Below, piece after piece: positions 1 through 43,016 of a DNA stretch of 64,000 nucleotides. Each line of letters starts with the position of its first letter. Position 1 is the stretch's first letter. The stretch comes from a virus (Duplodnaviria; Heunggongvirae; Uroviricota; Caudoviricetes): positions 1 through 64,000 of IMG/VR virus record IMGVR_UViG_3300012153_000089; one strand, written 5' to 3'. The position numbers and the translations under genes were made by a program. The notes under the pieces are model-generated. The model ran no database searches. It was not told where the DNA came from and saw only the letters and a program-made list of their open reading frames with translations.

Positions 1-1635
1 TTATATATACTTTCTTATATCAAACTCAATCTTTTCTCCCGTGTTTTCTAAGCTATAAGAGCTATCTCCGTCAAATCTTACATCAACAATAGGCTGATTT
101 TTTTCTCCGGTTCTTACTATAAGTTTATCGATCATGTTTAATACTTCTTCTTTTTCATATAACTTCTTAATTTCTTGTTCATTGATTTTTACAATTTTCT
201 CTTCTATTTGTTCTACCTGCTCCATTATGTTTTCATTAGATTGCGAATAGTTTTTGATCTCTTTTTTAGTGTTAACTATTTCTTTCTCTATCTTTTCACT
301 TTCAATGTCTAGTGTTTCTTTTTCAAATACTCCATCTAAATACAACTCTAAAAGTTTTTTCTTCTTGATTTCCAGTGATGATAAAGTACTATTTAAATCT
401 TTACTTTTATCAATATCTTGTTTATCAATTGACTCTACTAATAGATCTCTCTGTTTCTTTAGTGAACTGACCCTTGTCTCTTTATCTTTAACAAACATCT
501 CATAGTAACCGCCGCACTGGAGTGCCTGAAGATAATAATCTATCTCACTATAATTGACATTGGGATTGTCACAAAAATCTCTCCCCTTTGTCTTCTTGGT
601 TTTACAATTATAATACCTTCTTCCCTTATCAATATTGCTTGTATATACAGATCCGCATTTCTCACAGTAAATTAGTCCAGCATACTCAGTTATGCCTTTA
701 TATATCCCCTTTTGAATGATATGATTCACTTTGCTTATTTTGATATTTTGGACAGTCAAAAATAACTCCTTAGAGACAATTGGGGGTATGCGATCTTCTG
801 TGACAATCCATTCCTCTTTGGGTTTAATTGTTGAATATGTTTTCTTGTTAAAAACCACACCAGAATCATATTTATTTCTTGCCAATGTTCCCATGTATTT
901 CTCATTGGAGATCATTCTTTTAATCATTGAAGGAGAAAACTCTTTGTCTTTACGTGTGTAGTATTTTTTATCGTTCAATACATTTATAATTCTTCTTACT
1001 CCTAATCCTTTAGAATATAAGTTGAATATTTCGAGAACTATTTTAGCTTCTTTTTCATTTACGGTTAGTGAATTTGATTTCGGATGATAATCATATCCAA
1101 ACAAATTGCTGGCTCCAAATATCCTACCCCGCTGAGCAGACTCTCTCAGACCGAATCTTACTTTCTTTGATTTATCTATGGAGTCTTGTTGGTCAAAATT
1201 GAGAAATAAATTTAACATAAACTCTTTATCCGAACTATCAAAAAGCAAATCTATGTCTAGAAATTTTACATATACTTTGTTTTTGAGTAGCTCTCTAAGA
1301 ATATCTATAACCATAACGTTCCTTGCAAATCTACTAGTATTCTTAACAAGTATGACATCAAACTTTGGTTGTACACTTTGATCTATTTCGAAAACACTTC
1401 TGCTTTTTGTAACCTTGGTTTCAATTAGTCCAGCATCAGCCAACATTCTGGTAAAATGTTCCCGCTTGGTGAGACTTGTCCCTGTAATTCCTCTGTCAGC
1501 ATAGATATCGACCAATTCCATTGTTTCGCTTCTTCCCACTTCTCGTTCGAAAAATTGCTTTTGATTCTCGAAACTATTCTCTTGGTCTTTTGATGATGTA
1601 CTTACACGGCAATACGCAACTACTCTTTGTTTCAA
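1..1635 (-). CDS. large serine recombinase (phage integrase type)
   Basis: 544 aa. N-terminal resolvase/invertase catalytic domain (VAYCRVSTSSKDQ with catalytic Ser), recombinase domain, Cys-rich zinc ribbon (CEKCG...CKTKKTKGRDFCDNP) and C-terminal coiled coil. Stop codon at window bases 1-3. Confidence 0.9.
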   Translation of the reverse strand: MKQRVVAYCRVSTSSKDQENSFENQKQFFEREVGRSETMELVDIYADRGITGTSLTKREHFTRMLADAGLIETKVTKSRSVFEIDQSVQPKFDVILVKNTSRFARNVMVIDILRELLKNKVYVKFLDIDLLFDSSDKEFMLNLFLNFDQQDSIDKSKKVRFGLRESAQRGRIFGASNLFGYDYHPKSNSLTVNEKEAKIVLEIFNLYSKGLGVRRIINVLNDKKYYTRKDKEFSPSMIKRMISNEKYMGTLARNKYDSGVVFNKKTYSTIKPKEEWIVTEDRIPPIVSKELFLTVQNIKISKVNHIIQKGIYKGITEYAGLIYCEKCGSVYTSNIDKGRRYYNCKTKKTKGRDFCDNPNVNYSEIDYYLQALQCGGYYEMFVKDKETRVSSLKKQRDLLVESIDKQDIDKSKDLNSTLSSLEIKKKKLLELYLDGVFEKETLDIESEKIEKEIVNTKKEIKNYSQSNENIMEQVEQIEEKIVKINEQEIKKLYEKEEVLNMIDKLIVRTGEKNQPIVDVRFDGDSSYSLENTGEKIEFDIRKYI

Positions 1636-6617: not shown

Positions 6618-6899
6618 TTAAAATGATTCGAACAATTCTTCCAACTTTTCCTCATATAGCTCTGTATCCTCTGATTGTTCTTGTTCCGGTTCACTCTGAA
6701 TAATGAATTCAACAGTTCCTTCATTAGTTGGACGGTTCAAATAAGTGTTGTGTGAGTAAGGCGTACTACCAAAGAACAGTAACCTAAGCGCTCTCCTTAC
6801 GACATCGCTCTTATCTTCATGTGGAGGTAGGTTTTTCCAAGCTTCGCGTAGATCTTCATCTTTAATCGGTCTTAATCTTGCTCTTGCCGCTATTTCCAT
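6618..6899 (-). CDS. ParR-like adaptor / small DNA-binding partner of the actin-like ATPase
   Basis: 93 aa, basic N-terminus (MEIAARARLRPIK) and acidic C-terminus. Start overlaps the ParM-like stop by 10 nt, indicating translational coupling. The call rests on position. Confidence 0.4.
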   Translation of the reverse strand: MEIAARARLRPIKDEDLREAWKNLPPHEDKSDVVRRALRLLFFGSTPYSHNTYLNRPTNEGTVEFIIQSEPEQEQSEDTELYEEKLEELFESF

Positions 6900-7834
6900 G
6901 ATTTTTTACCTATCTTCCCGTATCCTCTCACTTGAGCCAACTGATCCATCAAGACTTTGTTAGGTAAATCTAAGTAATCAAAGATATAACGAGCAGCTCC
7001 ACCAGCAATTAAATATATGTCAAATTCCGTATTCAGACTTTCAATTTCATTCTTAATCTGTAAAGCTAAAGATTTAAATGCTCTTCTAATCAAAGGAACA
7101 ATGTTGTGCCCTTGGTATTTACCTGAGATCACGTATGGGTCTAATTCGTAAATTGCAGGAGTATGTCCAGTTAATTTTTGTATGTAAGTTTGCAGTAGTG
7201 TGTAGGCTTTCTCAACCCCAACCAATACACTTTTTGACTCTTTCATTATTGTTGACTTATCAAAACCCAATAAGTTTAGAGTGTAAAACCCCAAGTCTGC
7301 CGTAAGTATTTTTTTCTTTGCTTCTTTTAATCTGATGATCTTTCCATCGTCGTCTAGCAAATAATCCATTGTAATACCCAAACCCTGTGGAACCGTCTTG
7401 CACCTTTCAACGATGGGTTGTACTGGGTAACTCTTCCCTTTACCCTTGCGAATTTTATATTCTCCTTGATCGGCTAAGCCAAGTAGTTTTTCCTCGAATG
7501 GAGCTTTTTGTGTGAAGTAAAAGTTAATGGGTAGCCCACTGACCAAATTCACTTTATCTTTTTTTGCTAAGTATCCCAAAGTGGTCTTCATAACAACATC
7601 GCTAGTTTCGGCTTCAGCCTTTTTGTTGTTTAGTGAGAAGTACTTTATGTCACTGAATTCTAGTGCAACATTCCCCACAAATAGTTCATCATTATAGACG
7701 AAATGATCTGATTTAATATTTTGATCAAACATGTCTTTTGCTTCTCCTACTATTGTGGGCTGACGATAAAATTTTCCGTCTCTTTCTGCTTTGGTCCATT
7801 TAAAACCCAGATCTAAGTTCAGTATATTGCTCAA
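6890..7834 (-). CDS. actin-like segregation ATPase (ParM/Alp/StbA family)
   Basis: 314 aa. Actin-fold motifs LDLGFKWTKA (phosphate 1), ILTADLGFYTLNL (phosphate 2) and IYLIAGGAARYI (adenosine). TTG start with GAGGAGG SD. Confidence 0.75.
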   Translation of the reverse strand: MSNILNLDLGFKWTKAERDGKFYRQPTIVGEAKDMFDQNIKSDHFVYNDELFVGNVALEFSDIKYFSLNNKKAEAETSDVVMKTTLGYLAKKDKVNLVSGLPINFYFTQKAPFEEKLLGLADQGEYKIRKGKGKSYPVQPIVERCKTVPQGLGITMDYLLDDDGKIIRLKEAKKKILTADLGFYTLNLLGFDKSTIMKESKSVLVGVEKAYTLLQTYIQKLTGHTPAIYELDPYVISGKYQGHNIVPLIRRAFKSLALQIKNEIESLNTEFDIYLIAGGAARYIFDYLDLPNKVLMDQLAQVRGYGKIGKKSWK

Positions 7835-9832: not shown

Positions 9833-10486
9833 TTATGCAAATGCTGGAGCTAATTTCTTCACACTACTTTTAAAATATTGATGCGCGGCCTGTCTCGTTA
9901 CATTCATTTCTCTGCCAATATCAGAAATACTCATACCATCGAAAAAATACTTACGAGACACAATCTTCTCTTTTGGGGTTAATTTACGTTCAATATGTCC
10001 ACTTAGTACATTGTCAAACATAGAGTCTTCAACAGCAATCAAGTCAAGATGACTATCGTCTGCCAATATTTCCGACAATAATTTTTCGCTGTCTCCAGAG
10101 TTTGTCTTGTAAAGATTGTTATCCATACTAATGCTGCTATATTTGCTACGACACTTCATACCTTTTGCTCTGGCATTTGCTGAGAACTCCCTTACAACCA
10201 CCTTTGCTAAATAAGTGGAGAATTTAATATTCTTAGAGTGGTCATATGTATCATAAGCTTTTATTAGTCCAACCATCCCCATACTAACTAACTCATCTGG
10301 TTCTTCATGTGAGCCGCTAGTTAACGTCTTGTTAGCCAATTTGACTACAAAATGCATGTTGTTTTTGATAATTTTGTCTTTTAATTCTTTGTCTCCTGTC
10401 TCTTTTGCTAGTTTAATCATTTCTTCATTGTTAAAATTTACGATACGCTTCTCCAGTTTGATGCTTATTTTCATTGTCTCCACCAT
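9833..10486 (-). CDS. sigma-70 family RNA polymerase sigma factor (SigF/SigG-like, phage-encoded)
   Basis: 217 aa. Region 2 (DELVSMGMVGLIKAYDTYDHSKNIKFSTYLAKVVVREF) and region 4.2 HTH (MSISDIGREMNVTRQAAHQYFKSSVKKL). Confidence 0.8.
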   Translation of the reverse strand: MVETMKISIKLEKRIVNFNNEEMIKLAKETGDKELKDKIIKNNMHFVVKLANKTLTSGSHEEPDELVSMGMVGLIKAYDTYDHSKNIKFSTYLAKVVVREFSANARAKGMKCRSKYSSISMDNNLYKTNSGDSEKLLSEILADDSHLDLIAVEDSMFDNVLSGHIERKLTPKEKIVSRKYFFDGMSISDIGREMNVTRQAAHQYFKSSVKKLAPAFA

Positions 10487-26145: not shown

Positions 26146-26352
26146 CTATTCGTTACGTGCAATTCCAGCATTAGCCCAGAATACGACTTGTTCAAGATTT
26201 GTCATTGCCAATGATTTCTCACGACTATTTGGGACTGATTCTTCCAAAAGATATGCCAATTCTTTTGCTGCATTTCGGATTTGTTCATACTTTTGAGGCT
26301 GTCCTTCTTTTGGAGAATGGTAAGAAAAGTTGTTTTCAATTTGTGGATTCAT
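26146..26352 (-). CDS. hypothetical protein (68 aa)
   Basis: packed ORF. Confidence 0.4.
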   Translation of the reverse strand: MNPQIENNFSYHSPKEGQPQKYEQIRNAAKELAYLLEESVPNSREKSLAMTNLEQVVFWANAGIARNE

Positions 26353-28872: not shown

Positions 28873-29730
28873 TTATTTAACCTCTTCGGCCTTAGTGGTC
28901 GGCAGTTGAATCATTGGAGTATTAGATCCACTTACATAGGGAAGTGCTCCATCCCATTTCTTAATTGTTTCATATTGAACGAGTTGATTAGAGAGTGACT
29001 GCTGAAGCTCTTTATTTGCTTTAGCTTGACCTTCTGCCTCAATCAATAGTTTGTCTGCATTACCTTGTGCCTCTACTCTTTTACGGTCTGCTTCTTTCTT
29101 GGCAATTTCTAGCTCAGTCGTTTTACGTTCCAGTTCTTGAGAAGCTTCCACACGTTTATCAATTGCTTCTTGAGTCTTAGCATCTGGCTGAGGAACGCCC
29201 ACGGTTACGTTTGATACGATAAAGCCCAACTCTTTAACATCATCGGCAAAACGTTGCTGAACATCTACTCCCGCTTCAGAAGACTTTTCACCATAAACAT
29301 CAATTACTGTAAACTTAGAGATCCCTTTGCGAGCTGCATCACGGAATCGTGTTTTGAGATATGTATCTTCAATTTCTTGAATGCCAATTGGCCCAAATGT
29401 GTTAAAAATGGATGACACCTTGCTTGGCTCTACTTGGTAGTTATAAGCAAAATCAATCGTGATGTTTTTACCGTCAGATGTAGCAATTTGAATATCTTTA
29501 TATTCTACTGTTTGAATTCGAATTGGATATTTAGTTACTTTATCAAACGCGCCAACCAACTTCCATCCTTGGCTTAGTGTACTGTCCTTCACACCTCCAT
29601 TTGGTGAATATACGACACCGACATATCCATTAGGAATTCTTGTTACAAAGAAACTCAGTAGCACTACTCCCAGAACAATAGCCAATCCAACCGCAACTGC
29701 TCCTACCTTAAATGTCTTTAGATTTTTCAT
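28873..29730 (-). CDS. SPFH / band-7 family membrane protein (HflK/C-, prohibitin-, flotillin-like)
   Basis: 285 aa. N-terminal TM helix, SPFH core, and a C-terminal coiled coil (ELEIAKKEADRKRVEAQGNADKLLIEAEGQAKAN) typical of HflK/C. Confidence 0.8.
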   Translation of the reverse strand: MKNLKTFKVGAVAVGLAIVLGVVLLSFFVTRIPNGYVGVVYSPNGGVKDSTLSQGWKLVGAFDKVTKYPIRIQTVEYKDIQIATSDGKNITIDFAYNYQVEPSKVSSIFNTFGPIGIQEIEDTYLKTRFRDAARKGISKFTVIDVYGEKSSEAGVDVQQRFADDVKELGFIVSNVTVGVPQPDAKTQEAIDKRVEASQELERKTTELEIAKKEADRKRVEAQGNADKLLIEAEGQAKANKELQQSLSNQLVQYETIKKWDGALPYVSGSNTPMIQLPTTKAEEVK

Positions 29731-30480: not shown

Positions 30481-31002
30481 TTACTTAAACTTGAAAAATC
30501 TTTTGATTGCAAGATACCCCACAAATTGCATTATTGTCTTAACAACCACTTGACCAAGAATCGCATATCCTACTGCCTCCCATGGGATAAATCCAGCCCC
30601 AATTGGTGATAGACCGATGATTACAAACAATCCAGAGTCGATTATGCCTCCCACAGTTCCACTTAACAAAACTCTCTTCTCAAACGAGCATTTAAGTCTA
30701 GTAAATACTTCCGTATCAAACGTTTCTGAGAAAATAAATGTAATTGCACTTGCAAATACAATCCATAGAGTGTCACCCAATAGCCAAGAAGTTAATGCGG
30801 ATAACAATAATGCTATAAAGATGATATAGTATGTATTTTTACGACCATATTTTTGCTGTACTAAATCTCTAAGAATAAATGTAGCCCCAATAAATATTGT
30901 TCCCATTGGTACAATAAACTTCCAAAGTACAATAGGACTGAAACTTGCTGTAACTACGTTTGCAACGATAATGGCTAAAATATAAAGTAAAATTCTAATC
31001 AT
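30481..31002 (-). CDS. YhhQ/COG1738-like membrane protein (putative queuosine-precursor preQ0/preQ1 transporter)
   Basis: 173 aa, 5-6 TM helices. FIGATFILRDLVQ and TVGGIIDSGLFVI parallel E. coli YhhQ FPFIFLATDLTVR and GNVSDTLAFFFI. Confidence 0.55.
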   Translation of the reverse strand: MIRILLYILAIIVANVVTASFSPIVLWKFIVPMGTIFIGATFILRDLVQQKYGRKNTYYIIFIALLLSALTSWLLGDTLWIVFASAITFIFSETFDTEVFTRLKCSFEKRVLLSGTVGGIIDSGLFVIIGLSPIGAGFIPWEAVGYAILGQVVVKTIMQFVGYLAIKRFFKFK

Positions 31003-31012
31003 TTAATGCCTC

Positions 31013-31825
31013 CTAAATCGCTTCAATTATTTTTTTAGCTTTATGCATATTTTCTATGGTTAAGTCTGCTGGATGATAATCTACGAATTTCTGTTGTTTG
31101 TTATAAGTCTTAACCCACCTCTCTTGATCAACATCAATAACACTGCCCATAGTGGACATAATCTCGAAAGAGGAAGTATCGCAACTAATATTCAGTAGAT
31201 CAACGTCTACTCCAATGACTTCTAAAACTTCTTTTATGTATGCTACTTCTTTTAAAACACTGAATGTACCAACTCCGAAAATATGAACGTCTTTAACTTT
31301 AGATTTGCTGATAATGGGCAGTCCAATTTTAATAGCATCCAATAGTTTGAACTTTATCTCATTCACTCTTCCTGACATTGCCACTCCGCCCAGCCCAATA
31401 CAATCTTCTGGTGAAGCTATTTTTAATGTTTCAACCAAACATTCAATGTATTCCTTTGTTGTTGCGCCCTGAATCATGAGTACTAATTGCCTTGGGTTCA
31501 ACTCTTCACGTTTAGAAACTAAGTATTTATTGGCCTCAATTGTATCTTCAACGTTTCCAATGTGGTCATAAGCAACAATTCTCTCACAAATCATGCCAAC
31601 CTTGCTCTCAAGTTTCAGTTGTCGTTCTAGTGCTTCCTCAACTGTTATGCGCTTATCTTTGTCAGTATCCTGAAAAGCGCCGCTATCCATCAAGATTTTC
31701 GTTTCAGGGTTCCTGATAGTAATGCCTTTATACTTTGGATTCAAGCAGACACTTTGCGTGATGAATTCAGTGTTTAGTTCCTTGGTATTTAGTTTGTCAT
31801 TGCATTTTGATAAATATAGTCTCAA
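31013..31825 (-). CDS. dpdA: TGT-family transglycosylase, DpdA-like (putative DNA-guanine transglycosylase for 7-deazaguanine insertion)
   Basis: 270 aa. Catalytic-Asp motif ILMDSGAFQD (cf. tRNA-guanine transglycosylase LTDSGGFQ), GLGGVAMSG and HIFGVG motifs. No C-terminal Zn subdomain. Short, phage-type length. Confidence 0.6.
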   Translation of the reverse strand: MRLYLSKCNDKLNTKELNTEFITQSVCLNPKYKGITIRNPETKILMDSGAFQDTDKDKRITVEEALERQLKLESKVGMICERIVAYDHIGNVEDTIEANKYLVSKREELNPRQLVLMIQGATTKEYIECLVETLKIASPEDCIGLGGVAMSGRVNEIKFKLLDAIKIGLPIISKSKVKDVHIFGVGTFSVLKEVAYIKEVLEVIGVDVDLLNISCDTSSFEIMSTMGSVIDVDQERWVKTYNKQQKFVDYHPADLTIENMHKAKKIIEAI

Positions 31826-31829
31826 CTAA

Positions 31830-32258
31830 TCACTCTCCGATGTTGTTTTTAAACCAAGACAACTGCTGACCAATACCCAATCCTTTTAAGGGGATATTGA
31901 CCTTAATGCCTTGTTGCTCAAGCAATGGAACCAAATATTTTCTATACTTGTCTCCTGCATAAATTGAGATTTCTACCTCACTACTCTCTCCGATATTATC
32001 AATAATCTGTTGGTATACATTTTTTGACCATGAAATAATCTGTTCTTTTGAAAGATCATTTAGGGTGTAATTGTATGGATCGATACTTGTTTCTGGATCA
32101 AGAAGCTCATGTAGTGCACTAAGAATATAATATTGATCATGGTGTTTCTCTGAGTATTTTCTTGCTTTCTTAAATAGGTCTCCAATGTATAGATCTTTTG
32201 CTGCTACATTCTCGGACAATTTGTTCTTTCCACAACTAATTAGTGCTATTGATTTCAT
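31830..32258 (-). CDS. hypothetical protein (142 aa) upstream of and nearly abutting dpdA-like
   Basis: MKSIALISCGKNK... 5-nt gap to dpdA suggests a co-operonic partner. Function unknown. Confidence 0.5.
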   Translation of the reverse strand: MKSIALISCGKNKLSENVAAKDLYIGDLFKKARKYSEKHHDQYYILSALHELLDPETSIDPYNYTLNDLSKEQIISWSKNVYQQIIDNIGESSEVEISIYAGDKYRKYLVPLLEQQGIKVNIPLKGLGIGQQLSWFKNNIGE

Positions 32259-34972: not shown

Positions 34973-35299
34973 TTACCACTTAACACTTGGAAGCTTATGT
35001 AGCTTTCTTACATATCTTTTGACTAGCCAGTAGCTGATTGGATCGCGAATCTTCATACCCTTATCTTCAAACTTGATGATGCTTGCATGAAAATAACATT
35101 TAGCTTCTTCATTTTCGAAACTCTTTGGATGAGACTTCAGCCGTTTCCATTCGTATTTATTCCAGTTCTCTTTAAATTTCTTGTAGCTTCCCCATCCAGA
35201 TCTCTGCGTGTCGCCATTGGTCATAGAGATATGACCTAACCAAGGCACACAGGGAATTGAAATTAGTGCGTAAATAATCAAGCAGGCTGCAATTAACAT
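34973..35299 (-). CDS. hypothetical membrane-anchored protein (108 aa)
   Basis: N-terminal TM helix. Confidence 0.45.
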   Translation of the reverse strand: MLIAACLIIYALISIPCVPWLGHISMTNGDTQRSGWGSYKKFKENWNKYEWKRLKSHPKSFENEEAKCYFHASIIKFEDKGMKIRDPISYWLVKRYVRKLHKLPSVKW

Positions 35300-35338
35300 T
35301 TACATTCTCTCCTTTTGTAAGTAAAAGTATATTTTCTT

Positions 35339-35566
35339 TCACATTTCAATTACACCAGCATTTGAAATGTGAAGTACTCTGATATATGTACCCTCACTAT
35401 TTTGGCGGGTATTCCTATAGAGCTTGGCTACTCCAATCACTTCTTCTTTATCTAAATATATTCTACTTTGGAAAACATCGTTGATAAGCTGCCCTTTGTT
35501 ATTCAAGTACCCCTTATCTCGTACTCCAATGACATAAACCTCTTCTTTGGTATTTGTAATATGCAT
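35339..35566 (-). CDS. hypothetical protein (75 aa)
   Basis: AAAGGAGAG SD. Confidence 0.5.
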   Translation of the reverse strand: MHITNTKEEVYVIGVRDKGYLNNKGQLINDVFQSRIYLDKEEVIGVAKLYRNTRQNSEGTYIRVLHISNAGVIEM

Positions 35567-35591
35567 TTAAAACTCTCCTTTAAGTAGTATT

Positions 35592-35777
35592 TTAGTTAAA
35601 AAACTCTTTCAATTCTCTGATGCCATCTTGAAGCTTGCGTAGATTGTCATAAACGTCATCTTCAATTAGTTCCTTGTCAGGAAGATTTTCAAACACTTCA
35701 TTCCAACTGATAATTTGCAACTCATGCAATGCCTTACCCATCTCTGTAATAGTTTCTTTTGCTTCTCGAATGTTCAT
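35592..35777 (-). CDS. hypothetical protein (61 aa; the long ORF to 35924 is trimmed to Met50)
   Basis: internal ATG at 35777 has an AAAGGAG SD at 9 nt and removes the overlap with the next gene. Confidence 0.45.
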   Translation of the reverse strand: MNIREAKETITEMGKALHELQIISWNEVFENLPDKELIEDDVYDNLRKLQDGIRELKEFFN

Positions 35778-35799
35778 ATGTATTTCTCCTTTTAATTTG

Positions 35800-36090
35800 T
35801 TATAGTACTTCTGGAACCAAAGTGTAAAATGTATCAAAATTATCAATCTTGGCATAGTCAACAAATCCATCTGGGAATAAAAGTTTATACCTTGGAACAG
35901 TCTGCGATCTAGTAGATGTATCAATAGTAACTACACCTGAAATTAGTGGACTTCCTCCATGCTTACTGTGGAATGCTTTCAGTGTCCAAAGTGCATTGTT
36001 GACCTCGTAACCGTATTTCTCAGCAATATCTGAACCCATAAGGGGTTCTCTAGGAACTACTCTAACAATTCCTTCATTCATACTCATCAC
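35800..36090 (-). CDS. hypothetical protein (96 aa)
   Basis: packed ORF. Confidence 0.5.
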   Translation of the reverse strand: MMSMNEGIVRVVPREPLMGSDIAEKYGYEVNNALWTLKAFHSKHGGSPLISGVVTIDTSTRSQTVPRYKLLFPDGFVDYAKIDNFDTFYTLVPEVL

Positions 36091-36146
36091 TCTCCTATTC
36101 TATGACAATCATATTTAATCAGATATTCATTCTCTTTTGGATAATT

Positions 36147-36326
36147 TCCAAATCGTCCATAGTGATAATTTCTCTGTAATAATATTCAGGAGTAATTTTC
36201 ACTAACCCTTCAGCTAATTCCCAACTCAATTCCTTCCCTATTACATCTCCGTTGATTGTTTCATCTTGCCATTCAACCACTGCATATTTTGTATCCACAT
36301 ATGAGCCTCCTTTCTCTAAGAAACTC
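36147..36326 (-). CDS. small hypothetical protein (59 aa, GTG start, below cutoff)
   Basis: AAAGGAGG SD 7 nt before the GTG. Coordinates approximate. Confidence 0.35.
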
Positions 36327-36340
36327 TTCTTTTACTTGCT

Positions 36341-36769
36341 TTAGTTACTATTATATAGAACCATTATTTCTTTAAGATTCTTGATTTCAGAACTCCATCT
36401 TTCGTCTTTATTCCTCTCTTGAATGTTTTTTATTTCCAGTGGGATTTGAGCAACACCCTCTTCTACAATCCTATTCCAAGTCTTGTTTATTGGTAATGTC
36501 ACAATCCCATACTCCGTATAGCTCACTGTTTTTTGCATTGCAAGCGCAACCTTCATTGCTGTTTCGGCGTTTCTTGTATATTTTTGCTTGCCGAAATATT
36601 CTACAAGTCTAGCTGAAACCATTTCTTTTCTTTGATTAAAATCTTCAAATGACCACCATAGATTATCAATTGCAAAAGCATGAATAATTCGATATTGATC
36701 TTTTGTTTTCAAAATATAAATCCCATTATCAGCACTCATTAACACTTCTCCTTTTCTTATGAAATTCAA
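36341..36769 (-). CDS. hypothetical protein (142 aa)
   Basis: packed ORF. Confidence 0.5.
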   Translation of the reverse strand: MNFIRKGEVLMSADNGIYILKTKDQYRIIHAFAIDNLWWSFEDFNQRKEMVSARLVEYFGKQKYTRNAETAMKVALAMQKTVSYTEYGIVTLPINKTWNRIVEEGVAQIPLEIKNIQERNKDERWSSEIKNLKEIMVLYNSN

Positions 36770-36782
36770 ATTTTACTTAGAT

Positions 36783-37064
36783 TCAATTCTCGTCTTGATC
36801 GCTATTGCTTTCTACAATCATCCAATCTTCTGCAAAAATGTCCATCTGTGATGGAAACCAAGGTGCAAACTTATTGTTCGCAGTTTTTATTTCTATGTAA
36901 GGTACATGTTCAAAGTCACTGCTATTGCCATCACTTGAGAATGGCGAAGATGGTGGAGTAACCTTATGCAACCACACTCCTTTTTCAACCCATCCTTCGC
37001 GCGCTACCATATTCCAATCATCTTTCTTCATATAATCAATCGCTTGACCAAAATTCATTTGCAA
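36783..37064 (-). CDS. DUF2829-type small phage protein (candidate Tad2-like anti-Thoeris sponge)
   Basis: 93 aa. N-terminus MNFGQAIDYMKKDDWNMVAREGW matches the characteristic MxFGEAlxalKxGkkvaRxGW signature of this family, from memory. Confidence 0.45.
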   Translation of the reverse strand: MQMNFGQAIDYMKKDDWNMVAREGWVEKGVWLHKVTPPSSPFSSDGNSSDFEHVPYIEIKTANNKFAPWFPSQMDIFAEDWMIVESNSDQDEN

Positions 37065-37121
37065 TACTCTCTCTCCTGTTCTTTATGAAATCCAACCTTT
37101 ATAACATATTACGTTATTTTA

Positions 37122-37370
37122 TTATTTATTGAGTTTGAAAAATTCTTTTTTGCAACAAATCCAGAACGAAAAGTTTTCTTTTCCGTTGTCATCTACTATG
37201 TATGTTTCACTATCAATGCTCGCATTCTTTGCATATTTCTTAACTTTCATCTCGTAGAGTTTTCCAATGGTTACTGGCATTTCCCTAAGCTTGGCTAATA
37301 TTTTGACATGTGTTGCCTCCTCACTGGAGTCAATTTTCATCAAATCAGATTCGCTTATTGCAGCATACAT
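37122..37370 (-). CDS. hypothetical protein (82 aa)
   Basis: first gene after promoter copy 4. Confidence 0.5.
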   Translation of the reverse strand: MYAAISESDLMKIDSSEEATHVKILAKLREMPVTIGKLYEMKVKKYAKNASIDSETYIVDDNGKENFSFWICCKKEFFKLNK

Positions 37371-37399
37371 TTAACCATCCCTTTCGATCTGATAATTTT

Positions 37400-37443
37400 A
37401 TTATAAACTTATATTACAGTAAGTCAAGTGTTATTTTATTATT
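37400..37443 (-). promoter_or_regulatory. conserved element plus sigma-A promoter (TTGACT-16-TATAAT), copy 4
   Basis: plus-strand AAGTGTTATTTTATTATT at 37426-37443. Confidence 0.6.
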
Positions 37444-37475
37444 TATTATTCCAATGAAAACTATATTTTATCTGC

Positions 37476-37631
37476 TTATACATCAGTCAAAATATCCATC
37501 ATCTTTTCAATGTCCTCATCATTCAAACCGTTAACCTCTTTCCAATCCTTGACCATAAACTTTAAAGGTGGACACTCTAGATCCCACCAAGATAGAAAGC
37601 TAAGTTGTTCAAGCTGCTTTACAGTAAACAT
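37476..37631 (-). CDS. small hypothetical protein (about 51 aa, below cutoff)
   Basis: MFTVKQLEQLSFLSWWDLECPP... Coordinates approximate. Confidence 0.35.
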   Translation of the reverse strand: MFTVKQLEQLSFLSWWDLECPPLKFMVKDWKEVNGLNDEDIEKMMDILTDV

Positions 37632-37645
37632 TTAACATCTCCTAA

Positions 37646-38581
37646 TTAAACTCTAATTTTGTATTTGTCTTCATGTACCATTTTCGTGAAAAATTCAATG
37701 CCATGGTCTATTGGGGCATCTTTCTCTCCCATTACACCTGTATTTTTACTAGCAAATAAACAGTATATATTGTCTCGCAATACAAACTTCCTAGCTTCGT
37801 CTTTGATCTCATCACTAGTTACGTTATTATCGAATGCCAATACAATCTCTACACCCAAACGTTCCAACTTTAGCACTTGAGTTTCACTTAGTTCATGCCC
37901 ACCAATGCTAACACTATTTTTAATTCCATAACTCCACGCTTTCTGGACACTTTTTTCAGCCTCAAATACATAGACACGTCCAGTAGACTTAATGTGCTCA
38001 TATGTCTTATCAAGTCCGTATAAGATTAGGCTTTTAGGAGTAGGCACAGGATACCAATACTTTGAGATTTTCAGCTTCTCATAGTCTAATGTCGTCCTTC
38101 CCTTTACTCCAACTAGAGAGCCAAGATCATCTCTTACAGGTATGGTTATGCAGTTGTCATTGAGTGAGTATCCCACTTCAAATAACCGTTGTGTTTCACA
38201 TGATATCCCCTCCTCTAAGAACTTCCAATTTGGCATTGATATGTACATGTTTAAAACTGATTCGTCTATTCTACGTAGTGGAACTTCATCTTTGTCCTCT
38301 GTTTTTGGTTCGATTGAGTCCAAGAAGGATAGTATGGGATCTACCTCTTCTTTCGTGTACTTGTAATCTGAGTAATAGCTGTACCCACACACATCGCAGA
38401 TATAGTACATTGCTTTTGAAAACGATATGTCTTTGTAATGCTGCACAAGAGTTATTATATCCGCTGGTTTTGGTAGGGTGTCTGTATAACAATTAACTAA
38501 AAGTGAATCAGTGAACACTTGTAAACTTGAAGGATTGTCCCCTCCCGGTCTTGTAGAGCGTATTTCACTATGGTCTGACAT
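37646..38581 (-). CDS. dnaG: DnaG-like DNA primase (TOPRIM domain)
   Basis: RNA-polymerase domain segment ITIPVRDDLGSLVGVKGRTT. TOPRIM domain VYVFEAEKSVQKAWSYGIKNSVSIGG...VEIVLAFDNN. Directly downstream of the helicase gene. Confidence 0.75.
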   Translation of the reverse strand: MSDHSEIRSTRPGGDNPSSLQVFTDSLLVNCYTDTLPKPADIITLVQHYKDISFSKAMYYICDVCGYSYYSDYKYTKEEVDPILSFLDSIEPKTEDKDEVPLRRIDESVLNMYISMPNWKFLEEGISCETQRLFEVGYSLNDNCITIPVRDDLGSLVGVKGRTTLDYEKLKISKYWYPVPTPKSLILYGLDKTYEHIKSTGRVYVFEAEKSVQKAWSYGIKNSVSIGGHELSETQVLKLERLGVEIVLAFDNNVTSDEIKDEARKFVLRDNIYCLFASKNTGVMGEKDAPIDHGIEFFTKMVHEDKYKIRV

Positions 38582-38689
38582 TCTATCATTGATATGACAC
38601 CCTAGAGAGATTAAAATATCAGCAACTTTATTGTCTCGTATTATGTTGTCCTTTAAAGTTTGAGCATCAATTTTATATCACCTCTCGGA

Positions 38690-40177
38690 TTAATCCTTAT
38701 TCAAAGCCTTACGTAAATTTGCAACCTCTTTTTCAGTCTTAAGCTTTTTGTTCTCTTTCTTGAGTTGCTTAAGTTCTTTCTCTCCTTGCGATGGAACCAA
38801 GTACCCTTTTTCAATCCACAAGTTCTTCCCTTTATCTACTTCAAAACAAAGGATATCCTTGTCTTTACCGCCACGGTTCTTATCAATTACTACCATATAA
38901 TAGTTGATATGCATTTCTAATTGTGTTGTGGACTCTCCGATAAACGGGTCATTCGGGTTATATATCACGAATTTATCATACTGATCTCGTGAAATTGGCT
39001 TTGCCATCATTAATGAGTCTGCGACGTGTTTGATGTGCTTGCCGTTTGCAATAGCTTGGCTGGTGAGCATATCATTGAACAAACTGTCATCTGTCAATTG
39101 AAAAGTCGACCAAACAGGAATATCCTCAGTACTTGCAACCTCTTTTAACATATCGGCAGTTCTCACGAAAGTCATCCAGTCGTGATCCGGTGCTTTCATC
39201 GTGTCATAAATAATCAACTGACAGTTTCTCAGTTTATGGCGTTTGATTTGTCTTTTCAGAGTGTTTTCGTCATACTTGTTCAACTCCAAAAAGTATATCT
39301 TACTGTTTGCTTTTATGTATTGTGCTGCTTCTTTAACAATCTCTTTTTCGTCTTTATTTAGGGTTCCTGTGACTATTTTTGTCTCATCGATTCCATCAAT
39401 CCCTTTTCTCTTCATCTGGATATCAAACCCAAACTCGGGATTATTGAGAACGCAACTGATTTGCATTCCTAACCATTCAGCTTCATCTTGTTCATTTACA
39501 AGAACCAACACAGGGATCTGTAATTTTATGCCCAAATAGCATGCTATTTTACTTGTTGTGCGACTCTTTCCGCATCCACTATGCATTCCAAAAAGATTGA
39601 ACTTCTTACCACGAAGTCCTCGCAAAAGTCCATTGATAATAGAAAATGGAATTGGGACTCCAACATCTGGTGTTAATTCCCACTCTTCAATCTTATCTGG
39701 CATATTGTGTCCCAAGATAATACTATCTTCAACACCACCGATCACTGTACCAATGGTATTAATCTGATATTCCATTCCCTTAATAATGTCTTCTGTGCTT
39801 ATCTTGTCAAAGTCTTTTCTACCCATTAACTTCTGAACTGGGAATCCTTTTCTTTCAAATTCTCGTAACAATGAGTACTTCTTCAGTTTTTCATAATAAG
39901 TAGGGAAGTCATCTAAATCAACCAACTTCATAATCCTATCTATATATTTGTAACCTTTGAGATACTCATACTTTGCTTTTCTGTCTGTATCTGAATTCAT
40001 GTAGATGTTTATTTTCACTTCATTAATTTCTGTTCCAGCATGTTGACTATATAAATCCACAAGGGAATCATACAAAAACTTATTTGATGCTTGGTTGAAA
40101 TCATAATTAGACTTAATGAGCTCACTATAATCTAGAAATAAATCGGGATTTAGGTACATGCTGCCCACAATAAGCAT
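38690..40177 (-). CDS. dnaB: DnaB-family replicative DNA helicase
   Basis: 495 aa. Walker A LFGMHSGCGKSRT and a DnaB-like N-terminal domain. Confidence 0.85.
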   Translation of the reverse strand: MLIVGSMYLNPDLFLDYSELIKSNYDFNQASNKFLYDSLVDLYSQHAGTEINEVKINIYMNSDTDRKAKYEYLKGYKYIDRIMKLVDLDDFPTYYEKLKKYSLLREFERKGFPVQKLMGRKDFDKISTEDIIKGMEYQINTIGTVIGGVEDSIILGHNMPDKIEEWELTPDVGVPIPFSIINGLLRGLRGKKFNLFGMHSGCGKSRTTSKIACYLGIKLQIPVLVLVNEQDEAEWLGMQISCVLNNPEFGFDIQMKRKGIDGIDETKIVTGTLNKDEKEIVKEAAQYIKANSKIYFLELNKYDENTLKRQIKRHKLRNCQLIIYDTMKAPDHDWMTFVRTADMLKEVASTEDIPVWSTFQLTDDSLFNDMLTSQAIANGKHIKHVADSLMMAKPISRDQYDKFVIYNPNDPFIGESTTQLEMHINYYMVVIDKNRGGKDKDILCFEVDKGKNLWIEKGYLVPSQGEKELKQLKKENKKLKTEKEVANLRKALNKD

Positions 40178-42179: not shown

Positions 42180-43016
42180 TTACTCTTCATTGTCAGATGA
42201 TGCTGCCCCTTCTCCATCAAAAACCTGATCAATTACTTCAGATATCCATTCAGTACTAATAACAAAGTCAGGCTTAACTGATTGAATTTTAATTTGCTCA
42301 ATAATATCTCTAAACAAAGTCAAATCTACTCCAGTCAATTGTTCTTCTAGGACATTTGCATCGTCTAGTTTCAGCTCACCACATTGTAAGATCATCTTTA
42401 AGTATTGTCCTGCGTTGATACTCCAACCTCGTTGTATGTATTTTCTCGATCTAATAACAGATGCTAATGGATATTTTGAGCCAACATATTTTAATTCTTT
42501 GGTTACTATTGACTCAAGTGCTTTTTGTGGTAAGACCAATTCGTTCTTATGTGGGATGAAGTAACATGTACAATGAACGTAGTCATAATTCTTATGTATC
42601 TCTTCAGGGTTTCCATAAAATCTATTTACCAATTGAACATCGTCCGAAAGAGTGATTGCATTAGACGATACGAAGACTGGTAGATATCCTTCTTTGTATT
42701 TTGCTCCTGCTACTCCTGCACTTGGCACAATAACTCTAATTCTATTTTCTTTCTCTTCAACCTTAACATCGTAGTGGTTGTTGGTTCTCTTATTGAATTT
42801 TTTAGCGTAATACTCTGTTACCTTCTTACATGATTCTTTATCCATGAAATAGTAATCATAGTCATTTGGTTCTTCGTCAAGCAGTAGCGATACAATAGCT
42901 CCTCCGGTAATAAAAGACTTTTCGTTGACAATCTTTACGATTGACTCATCATCGATAGAACCAATAAAGTCTCTGTGGGCATCTTGCAGCTTACGTTTAA
43001 TTGTTTTTAAATTCAT
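42180..43016 (-). CDS. predicted nucleotidyltransferase-fold protein (278 aa)
   Basis: ITGGAIVSLLLDEEPNDYDYYF fits the pol-beta NTase signature hG[GS]x(9-13)DhD. Weak call. Confidence 0.35.
   Translation of the reverse strand: MNLKTIKRKLQDAHRDFIGSIDDESIVKIVNEKSFITGGAIVSLLLDEEPNDYDYYFMDKESCKKVTEYYAKKFNKRTNNHYDVKVEEKENRIRVIVPSAGVAGAKYKEGYLPVFVSSNAITLSDDVQLVNRFYGNPEEIHKNYDYVHCTCYFIPHKNELVLPQKALESIVTKELKYVGSKYPLASVIRSRKYIQRGWSINAGQYLKMILQCGELKLDDANVLEEQLTGVDLTLFRDIIEQIKIQSVKPDFVISTEWISEVIDQVFDGEGAASSDNEE

What the first reader, a model, noticed from the sequence alone, without database searches (positions are those of the whole stretch)
36783..37064. DUF2829-type small protein: candidate Tad2-like sponge against Thoeris signalling
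The 93-aa product begins MNFGQAIDYMKKDDWNMVAREGWVEKGVWLH. This closely matches the N-terminal signature I associate with the DUF2829 family of small phage proteins. To my recollection, the Thoeris anti-defence protein Tad2, which sequesters the gcADPR signal, belongs to this family. It is an otherwise unremarkable early gene. If the family assignment is right, it is an anti-defence gene.
Basis: partly seen in the sequence, partly recalled or inferred. Interest (0 to 1): 0.55.

Follow-up and report, generated by a model that had tools for sequence, protein, structure and literature searches.

The report
Tad2-family sponge with altered ligand pocket
This small prophage gene does encode a Tad2-family (DUF2829) protein, a family of phage "sponges" that soak up bacterial immune signals, but two residues that grip the signal's phosphates in characterised relatives are replaced, so its target signal is uncertain.

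Summary
The ORF is real. It lies on the minus strand at 36783..37058 (ATG start, 91 aa) or ..37064 (TTG start, 93 aa). The family call is correct: Pfam PF11195 "Tad2-like" (formerly DUF2829), E = 1.2e-19, 71 bits against a cutoff of 25, over the full profile. The AlphaFold2 model (pLDDT 87.7) matches only Tad2 structures in the PDB: SPO1 Tad2, ModTad2, SptTad2 and HgmTad2/AcrIIA7. The gene sits in the replication module of an SPβ-like prophage in a Bacillales-type chromosome. That prophage also encodes an Acb2/Tad1-hairpin protein and a Gad2-family protein.

The specific claim that it sequesters gcADPR is not secured. The loop motif `W-N-G` reads `W-V-E` here. In characterised Tad2 proteins that Asn and Gly bind the ligand's diphosphate. 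Asn is present in 260 of 270 relatives and in all 15 members of the protein's own subfamily. T78 of SPO1 Tad2, which contacts the adenine, is Met. The aromatic cage (W23, W67), S70 and D73 are kept.

Most likely it is a signal sponge with changed specificity or affinity. A canonical anti-Thoeris role remains possible, and a decayed copy cannot be excluded. It is a variant of a well-known family and of modest interest.

The parts
36783..37058 (-). Tad2-like (PF11195/DUF2829) coding sequence, 91 aa from the ATG. An alternative TTG start at 37064 gives 93 aa.
   Evidence: ORF list and sequence. Pfam E = 1.2e-19. PDB sequence hits to Tad2 proteins. AF2 model pLDDT 87.7. Foldseek top 24 hits are all Tad2 structures.
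37067..37077 (-). Shine-Dalgarno-like AGGAGAGAGAG upstream of both candidate start codons
   Evidence: Read directly from the sequence.
36984..36992 (-). Codons TGG GTT GAA = W23-V24-E25, the loop that is W-N-G in almost all relatives (N26/G27 of SPO1 Tad2; N22/G23 of HgmTad2)
   Evidence: Sequence. Alignments. Family counts: N in 260/270 and G in 255/270.
36840..36860 (-). Codons for residues 67-73, W-F-P-S-Q-M-D (= W73..D79 of SPO1 Tad2). The second half of the pocket, with Thr replaced by Met at position 72.
   Evidence: Alignments. Family counts.
36783..36809 (-). Codons for the acidic C-terminal tail SNSDQDEN (residues 84-91) plus the stop codon. The tail has no counterpart in relatives and is modelled with low confidence.
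   Evidence: Subfamily alignment. pLDDT < 50 for residues 87-91. Tail net charge -3.
37400..37427 (-). Sigma-70-like promoter match TTGACT-16-TATAAT (11 of 12), upstream of the 82-aa ORF that precedes the Tad2-like gene. Weak evidence only.
   Evidence: Consensus scan. The total number of sites in the region is not above the shuffled expectation.
37122..37370 (-). Upstream co-directional 82-aa ORF of unknown function, probably in the same transcription unit
   Evidence: No terminator-like site lies between it and the Tad2-like gene.
36341..36739 (-). Downstream co-directional 132-aa ORF of unknown function, starting 44 bases after the Tad2-like stop codon

Best explanation
The gene encodes a Tad2-family protein. 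By homology this is a small homotetrameric 'sponge', made from a prophage's early/replication gene block, that protects the phage by sequestering a nucleotide-derived immune signal in a pocket formed between two protomers.

Shown here: family membership, the fold, and retention of the aromatic cage (W23, W67) together with S70 and D73.

Also shown: the polar half of the pocket is remodelled. Asn-Gly has become Val-Glu at residues 24-25, Thr has become Met at 72, Asp has become Asn at 61, and residues 65 and 68 also differ.

Inferred: these changes alter or weaken recognition of the ADP-ribose diphosphate. The protein therefore probably does not bind 3'cADPR (1''-3' gcADPR) in the canonical way. 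It either binds a different signal or binds 3'cADPR much less tightly.
For: Family and fold:
- Pfam PF11195, 71 bits against a cutoff of 25.
- PDB sequence matches to Tad2/ModTad2 at 4.6e-12 and to SPO1 Gp34.65 at 7e-9.
- AF2 model pLDDT 87.7.
- The Foldseek top 24 PDB hits are all Tad2 structures (TM 0.62-0.85), and the next hit has E > 1.

Pocket remodelling:
- V24/E25 align to N26/G27 of SPO1 Tad2 and N22/G23 of HgmTad2.
- These residues bind the phosphates (10.1101/2023.05.01.538930; PMC10680739). The W21A/N22A double mutant of HgmTad2 markedly reduces gcADPR binding (PMC10680739).
- N is present in 260/270 relatives and G in 255/270. `WVE` occurs only in this protein.
- All 15 subfamily members (57-72% identical) have `WNG`.
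- 6 of the protein's 12 deviations from subfamily-conserved columns fall in the 11 pocket positions taken from the literature (Fisher p = 0.006). The p-value is 0.044 if positions 24 and 25 are left out.

Not plain decay:
- The ORF is intact and has a ribosome-binding site.
- W23, W67, S70 and D73 are kept.
- Elsewhere in the family, the 8 other non-Asn variants also lack G25 (6/8, p = 9e-8) and T72 (6/8, p = 4e-4), yet all keep W23, W67 and D73.

Counter-defence context:
- The same prophage carries an Acb2/Tad1-hairpin protein (E = 8.7e-23) and a precomputed Gad2-family hit.
Against: - There is no binding or infection data.
- Single substitutions of N26 or G27 have not been tested in the papers I read, so Val/Glu might be tolerated.
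- The enrichment test was prompted by seeing V24/E25. It falls to p = 0.15 when only the direct-contact residues of SPO1 Tad2 are used.
- The covariation rests on 8 sequences whose independence is not established.
- The model is a monomer, so the inter-protomer pocket itself was not modelled.
- The host's defence repertoire could not be examined.
Confidence: 0.45

Rival explanations
1. It is a canonical Tad2: it sequesters 3'cADPR (1''-3' gcADPR) and blocks type I Thoeris despite the substitutions.
For: - Most tested Tad2 homologues inhibit type I Thoeris: 4 of 5 in 10.1101/2023.05.01.538930.
- Most of the ligand contact in SPO1 Tad2 is van der Waals packing against W25 and W73, plus polar contacts from D79. 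All three are kept here as W23, W67 and D73.
- The host is Bacillales-like. [quoted passage not shown]
- The close relatives are canonical in sequence.
Against: - Asn and Gly, which contact the diphosphate from both protomers, are replaced by Val and Glu. The Glu adds negative charge next to a dianionic group.
- The adenine-contacting Thr is Met.
- The protein is unusually acidic, with net charge -9. Only 1.5% of 137 short homologues are that acidic.
- ModTad2 shows that even a `WNG`-bearing Tad2 can fail against type I Thoeris (10.1101/2024.01.03.573942).
Confidence: 0.3
2. It is a decaying or inactive copy: a Tad2-fold protein that no longer binds any signal and is carried passively in the prophage.
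For: - It is the most divergent member of its subfamily: 64.5% mean identity against 74% among the others.
- It has the most pocket deviations, 6 against at most 3 in any relative.
- The prophage carries another candidate sponge that could make it redundant.
Against: - The reading frame is intact, with a ribosome-binding site.
- The invariant fold and cage residues F3, G4, W23, W67, D73, D78 and W79 are all kept.
- The model is confident.
- The identical sequence occurs in three assemblies, so it is not a sequencing error.
Confidence: 0.15
3. It is an AcrIIA7-like anti-CRISPR that binds tracrRNA in a basic groove of the tetramer.
For: AcrIIA7/HgmTad2 has the same fold and is reported to bind tracrRNA (PMC13133391).
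Against: - That mechanism needs a positively charged groove formed by K58, K66, K71, K93 and R101 of pdAcrIIA7 (PMC13133391).
- This protein has net charge -9 and pI 4.35.
- By my mapping of that numbering onto the alignment, the residue equivalent to K66 is Glu here, and K93 and R101 lie in the long insertion, which is only 23 residues here.
- The anti-CRISPR activity is itself disputed (PMC10680739).
Confidence: 0.03

Closest known systems
SPO1 Tad2 (Gp34.65; PDB 8SME/8SMF/8SMG), the founding Thoeris anti-defence 2 protein
   Same: - Same Pfam family and fold, and similar size (about 90 aa).
- 34-40% identity.
- Short insertion after strand beta2 (23 residues here, 24 in SPO1).
- W25, I63, T65, W73, S76 and D79 are all conserved (as W23, I57, T59, W67, S70, D73).
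- Encoded by a large Bacillales phage.
   Different: - N26 to V, G27 to E, D67 to N, H71 to A, V74 to F and T78 to M.
- Much more acidic (net -9 against -1).
- An extra acidic C-terminal tail.
- Encoded by an SPβ-like prophage rather than a lytic SPO1-like phage.
ModTad2/MoTad2 (PDB 8V3E, 9EIB), the His-ADPR (type II Thoeris) and cUMP/cCMP (Pycsar) sponge
   Same: It is the best PDB sequence match (E = 4.6e-12) and has the same fold. It shows that pocket details, not family membership, set the ligand.
   Different: ModTad2 keeps `WNG`. It has extra strands after beta2 that create the second (cUMP) pocket. The window protein has only the short insertion.
HgmTad2/AcrIIA7 (PDB 8KBI-8KBM, 9KZR)
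   Same: Same core fold. The gcADPR pocket residues W21, S90 and D93 are equivalent to W23, S70 and D73.
   Different: HgmTad2 has a 41-residue insertion that forms a cyclic-dinucleotide pocket, and a basic groove reported to bind tracrRNA. Both are absent here. N22, G23 and T92 are replaced here.
Rare non-Asn Tad2 variants in public data (P0032, P0041, P0057, P0058, P0074, P0077, P0089, P0111)
   Same: They lack the loop Asn, usually also the Gly and the Thr, and keep both Trp residues and the Asp. None has been characterised.
   Different: Each has a different replacement (`WRE`, `WEG`, `WVT`, `WLS`, `WEP`, `WKE`, `WEN`, `WDG`). They are at most about 50% identical to the window protein and are not its close relatives.

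Membership tests
Pfam PF11195 Tad2-like domain (formerly DUF2829) | Profile HMM score above the curated gathering threshold, over the whole domain | tested here: met
   71 bits against 25, E = 1.2e-19, profile positions 1-73 of 73. 113 bits against a profile built from 107 homologues, and the only such ORF in the window.
Pfam PF11195 Tad2-like domain (formerly DUF2829) | Fold: N-terminal helix followed by an antiparallel sheet with two loop helices | tested here: met
   AF2 model elements H3-12, E17-20, E29-33, E54-58, E64-66, H71-75, E79-82, pLDDT 87.7. The Foldseek top 24 PDB hits are all Tad2 structures.
Pfam PF11195 Tad2-like domain (formerly DUF2829) | Homotetramer made of two V-shaped dimers | not testable with these tools
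   Only a monomer could be modelled. The helix alpha1 residues F3 and G4 are invariant and kept.
Tad2 as a 3'cADPR (gcADPR) sponge inhibiting type I Thoeris | Aromatic cage: W25 and W73 of SPO1 Tad2 | tested here: met
   W23 and W67.
Tad2 as a 3'cADPR (gcADPR) sponge inhibiting type I Thoeris | Ser and Asp of helix alpha3 (S76/D79 in SPO1; S90/D93 in HgmTad2) that contact the ribose hydroxyls | tested here: met
   S70 and D73.
Tad2 as a 3'cADPR (gcADPR) sponge inhibiting type I Thoeris | Asn-Gly after the first Trp (N26/G27 in SPO1; N22/G23 in HgmTad2), binding the diphosphate from both protomers | tested here: not met
   V24-E25. N occurs in 260/270 relatives, G in 255/270, and in 15/15 subfamily members.
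Tad2 as a 3'cADPR (gcADPR) sponge inhibiting type I Thoeris | Thr that hydrogen-bonds the adenine (T78 in SPO1; T92 in HgmTad2) | tested here: not met
   M72. T occurs in 223/270 relatives and M in 5. The close relative P0002 shares the Met.
Tad2 as a 3'cADPR (gcADPR) sponge inhibiting type I Thoeris | Water-coordinating D67 and H71 of SPO1 Tad2 | tested here: inconclusive
   N61 (the family has D in 203/270) and A65. H71 is not conserved in the family, where V predominates (241/270), so this position is not diagnostic.
Tad2 as a 3'cADPR (gcADPR) sponge inhibiting type I Thoeris | Binds 3'cADPR and rescues phage on Thoeris-bearing cells | not testable with these tools
   Needs biochemistry and infection assays.
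Tad2 with a second pocket for cyclic dinucleotides or cUMP (HgmTad2, SptTad2, MoTad2) | Long insertion (35-41 residues) between beta2 and beta5 | tested here: not met
   The insertion is 23 residues, equal to the family median and similar to SPO1 Tad2 (PMC10680739).
AcrIIA7 tracrRNA-binding anti-CRISPR | Positively charged groove (K58, K66, K71, K93, R101 of pdAcrIIA7) | tested here: not met
   Net charge -9 and pI 4.35. By my mapping onto the alignment, the K66 equivalent is E21, and K93 and R101 lie in the insertion that is short here. This test is by sequence only.

The most novel reading that the evidence does not exclude
The `W-V-E` pocket is an adaptation, not damage. On this reading the protein is a Tad2 sponge retuned to an immune signal that canonical Tad2 proteins do not bind. 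The signal could be an ADPR derivative carrying a cationic group that the new Glu could pair with, or a signal not yet described. The protein could then serve as bait to isolate that signal from infected cells, as ModTad2 was used to find His-ADPR.
Probability: 0.25. Interest if true: 0.6.

Novelty: new variant of a known kind. Interest (0 to 1): 0.35.

Why it matters
Tad2 proteins are widespread. The word-indexed profile search found 7,989 proteins, and the exhaustive search found 1,523 cluster representatives. Their ligand range is still being mapped. Sponges with unusual pockets have already led to new immune signals: ModTad2 led to His-ADPR. A natural Tad2 that keeps the aromatic cage but swaps the phosphate-binding Asn-Gly for Val-Glu, alongside close `WNG`-bearing relatives, is a ready-made comparison for asking what sets specificity in this pocket. 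As a gene annotation it is ordinary, because Pfam already names the domain.

Tried and rejected
- **Close phage relatives:** megablast of 35000-39000 against 50,697 phage records found nothing.
- **Neighbouring small ORFs:** Pfam and PHROG scans of ORFs between 34.5 and 37.6 kb gave no informative hit.
- **NCBIfam:** it has no model for this protein, the Acb2-like protein or the Gad2-like protein.
- **Exact look-up of the 91-aa product:** this failed. The 93-aa version and neighbouring proteins were found instead.
- **Source genome:** it is not among the GTDB representative genomes or IMG/VR. The best relatives there are at most 45% identical. The rest of the host genome could therefore not be screened for Thoeris or other TIR systems.
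- **Gad2 and YorH Pfam hits:** the precomputed PF26128 and PF26927 hits could not be reproduced, apparently because the local Pfam copy lacks those models. None of the 70-odd rows listed from tblastn of the Gad2-like protein (82 matching records; 22 not listed) was annotated Gad2.
- **Sequences of tested Tad2 homologues:** the supplementary tables of PMC12393519 are not held. I could not check whether any tested Tad2 has a non-Asn loop.
- **Second Tad2 copy:** rejected. The HMM scan of all six frames finds only this ORF.
- **Cyclic-dinucleotide/cUMP second pocket and AcrIIA7-like RNA binding:** both rejected on insertion length and charge.

Full report
**1. Observation**

The coordinates 36783..37064 hold an ORF on the minus strand. 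The plus-strand translation is broken by stop codons. From the TTG at 37064 the ORF encodes 93 aa beginning MQMNFGQ. An AGGAGAGAGAG ribosome-binding site lies just upstream. Homologues begin at MNFGQ. Public gene calls exist for both lengths. All residue numbers below use the ATG start.

**2. Family and fold**

- Pfam assigns the protein to PF11195, now named "Tad2-like, Thoeris anti-defense 2-like domain". The score is E = 1.2e-19, 71 bits against a gathering cutoff of 25, across the whole 73-position profile.
- PHROGs places it in two families of unknown function.
- Sequence search of the PDB finds only Tad2 proteins at significant E-values: Tad2/ModTad2 at 4.6e-12, SPO1 Gp34.65 at 7e-9, then SptTad2 and HgmTad2/AcrIIA7.
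- An AlphaFold2 model built on 107 homologues has mean pLDDT 87.7. Confidence is low only in the 41-50 loop and the last residues.
- The 24 best Foldseek matches in the PDB are all Tad2-family chains (TM 0.62-0.85). The next match has E > 1.

The family assignment is therefore secure.

**3. Ligand pocket**

*What the literature defines*

- In SPO1 Tad2 the ligand 1''-3' gcADPR is held by W25 and W73, with polar contacts to phosphates and hydroxyls from N26 and D79.
- T78, I63 and T65 contact the adenine. Ordered waters are held by N26, D67, H71, W73, S76 and D79 (10.1101/2023.05.01.538930).
- In HgmTad2 the diphosphate is bound by N22 and G23 of both protomers. The mutants W21A/N22A and S90A/T92A/D93A markedly reduce binding (PMC10680739).

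*How the window protein maps*

Pairwise, multiple and profile alignments agree on the mapping.

| SPO1 Tad2 residue | Window residue | Status |
|---|---|---|
| W25 | W23 | kept |
| N26 | V24 | changed |
| G27 | E25 | changed |
| I63 | I57 | kept |
| T65 | T59 | kept |
| D67 | N61 | changed |
| H71 | A65 | changed (position not conserved in the family) |
| W73 | W67 | kept |
| V74 | F68 | changed |
| S76 | S70 | kept |
| T78 | M72 | changed |
| D79 | D73 | kept |

*How unusual this is*

- Among 270 aligned domains, drawn from the exhaustive representative search and the word-indexed profile search, Asn occupies position 24 in 260 and Gly occupies position 25 in 255.
- The motif `WVE` is found only in this protein.
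- The protein belongs to a tight subfamily of 15 relatives at 57-72% identity, marked by a conserved TPPSSPFSSD loop. All 15 have `WNG`.
- Against the 58 columns that are at least 80% conserved in those relatives, the window protein deviates at 12. Six of the 12 are among the 11 pocket positions taken from the literature (odds ratio 8.2, Fisher p = 0.006). No relative has more than three such deviations.
- I ran this test after noticing V24/E25, so I repeated it. Without positions 24 and 25 the p-value is 0.044. With only the direct-contact residues of SPO1 Tad2 it is 0.15. The enrichment is real but modest.
- The change is not a sequencing artefact. The identical protein is encoded in a 689-kb JGI contig, a 1.73-Mb ENA contig and a 28-kb Logan contig. 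The ENA contig is 100% identical to the window over 20,795 bases.

**4. Decay or retuning?**

- Leaving this protein aside, eight other family representatives lack the Asn. Six of the eight also lack the Gly (p = 9e-8) and six lack the Thr at position 72 (p = 4e-4). All eight keep both Trp residues and the Asp.
- This looks like a rare alternative polar lining inside a conserved aromatic cage, and the window protein fits it.
- The numbers are small, and the independence of the eight sequences is not established.
- No solved Tad2 structure has a non-Asn loop.
- I could not obtain the sequences of the 18 Tad2 homologues tested in PMC12393519.
- That study shows the Tad2 family as a whole targets 3'cADPR, His-ADPR, N7-cADPR, cUMP/cCMP and cyclic dinucleotides, often with high specificity. 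Across the three sponge families tested (Acb2, Tad1, Tad2), 19 of 84 sponge homologues inhibited none of seven systems.

**5. Other known functions of the fold**

- The second pocket, which binds cyclic dinucleotides in HgmTad2 and SptTad2 and cUMP in MoTad2, depends on a long insertion after beta2 (35-41 residues; PMC10680739, PMC12393519). Here the insertion is 23 residues, the family median.
- AcrIIA7 is reported to bind tracrRNA in a positively charged groove (PMC13133391). The window protein has net charge -9 and pI 4.35. It is more acidic than all but 1.5% of 137 short homologues. By my mapping onto the alignment, it has Glu at one groove lysine position and lacks the insertion that carries two others.
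- Both alternatives are unlikely.

**6. Genomic context**

- All long ORFs in the window are on the minus strand and GC content is about 35%.
- The neighbours are replication and nucleotide-metabolism genes: DnaE-type polymerase, RNR, RecJ-like, DnaB-like, primase-like, ATP-dependent ligase and a Y-family polymerase, plus ThyA and DHFR (precomputed).
- The DnaB-like helicase is 41% identical to that of Geobacillus virus E3 and about 25% identical to SPβ-group phages. A neighbouring protein carries the SPβ YorH domain (precomputed).
- The left edge of the window is the prophage end. A large serine recombinase (1..1635) is followed, outside the window, by a truncated Mg-chelatase/ComM-like gene and then by MarR, sucC, sucD, dprA, topA and trmFO. 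That is a Bacillales-type chromosomal arrangement.
- To the right the phage continues for at least 10 kb beyond the window.
- The element is therefore an SPβ-like prophage longer than 74 kb in a Bacillales-like host from a metagenome.
- The Tad2-like gene lies between the primase-like and RecJ-like genes, among small orphan ORFs. It is downstream of the best sigma-70-like promoter match in the region (11 of 12). That is weak evidence, because such sites are no commoner here than in shuffled sequence. 'Early gene' is plausible but inferred.

**7. Counter-defence neighbours**

- A 68-aa ORF at 26146..26352 is an Acb2/Tad1-hairpin protein (PF24729, E = 8.7e-23). It is a second candidate sponge.
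- The 278-aa ORF at 42180..43016 carries a precomputed Gad2 (anti-Gabija) family hit. I could only confirm it as a widespread phage nucleotidyltransferase-like protein.
- These support a counter-defence role for genes in this block. They also leave room for division of labour between two sponges.

**8. Verdict**

The observation and the family assignment are right. The functional inference is only partly supported.

| Reading | Probability |
|---|---|
| Signal sponge with altered specificity or much weaker 3'cADPR binding | 0.45 |
| Canonical type I Thoeris inhibitor | 0.30 |
| Inactive relic | 0.15 |
| AcrIIA7-like RNA binder | 0.03 |
| Something else | remainder |

It is a variant of a well-known family. 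Any current Pfam-based annotation would already flag it. The pocket variant gives it modest extra interest as a specificity probe or as bait for a possible new ligand.

Noticed in passing
window 26146-26352 (-): A 68-aa ORF is an Acb2/Tad1-hairpin protein (PF24729, E = 8.7e-23, 80.7 bits against a cutoff of 27). It is a second candidate immune-signal sponge in the same prophage. It is 77% identical to Paenibacillus larvae phage proteins, some of which are annotated 'phosphomannomutase'.
   Followed up: partly
window 42180-43016 (-): A 278-aa protein has a precomputed Pfam Gad2 (anti-Gabija, PF26128) hit, about 5 kb upstream of the Tad2-like gene and next to the ligase. The local Pfam copy did not reproduce the hit. 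tblastn shows 35-48% identity to nucleotidyltransferase-like proteins of Lysinibacillus, Bacillus, Vibrio and other phages, and none of the listed rows was annotated Gad2. Validated Gad2 is about 400 aa.
   Followed up: partly
window 30481-32258 (-): Three adjacent genes may form a 7-deazaguanine (queuosine-precursor) DNA-modification or salvage module: a Vut_1/YhhQ-like transporter (30481-31002), a weak TGT-like protein (31013-31825, E = 9e-5, below the cutoff) and a DUF6884 protein (about 31830-32258). Such modification is another known anti-restriction strategy.
   Followed up: partly
window 1-1635 (-) and locus L091 10711-20552: The window's left edge is the prophage end. A 544-aa large serine recombinase is followed by a truncated Mg-chelatase/ComM-like gene on the other strand, which may be a split attachment site. 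Host genes MarR, sucC, sucD, dprA, topA and trmFO come next, in Bacillales order.
   Followed up: partly
proteins P0032, P0041, P0057, P0058, P0074, P0077, P0089, P0111: About 3% of Tad2-family representatives lack the loop Asn. These usually also lack the following Gly and the adenine-contacting Thr, but all keep both Trp residues and the Asp. This may be an uncharacterised pocket type within the family.
   Followed up: partly
locus L002 3216-3494: The close relative P0003 (70% identical, `WNG` intact) sits between the portal gene and the capsid genes of a podovirus-like contig, not in a replication module. The subfamily therefore moves between unrelated phage backbones.
   Followed up: no
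window 36783-36809 (-): The window protein ends in an acidic tail, SNSDQDEN, that no subfamily member shares. The tail is modelled as disordered. Overall the protein has net charge -9.
   Followed up: no
window 6890-7834, 9833-10486, 28873-29730 (all -): The prophage encodes an actin-like ALP_N/MreB-like protein, a sigma-70-family factor (precomputed hit) and an SPFH/Band-7 protein. All are unusual accessory genes for a phage replication region.
   Followed up: no
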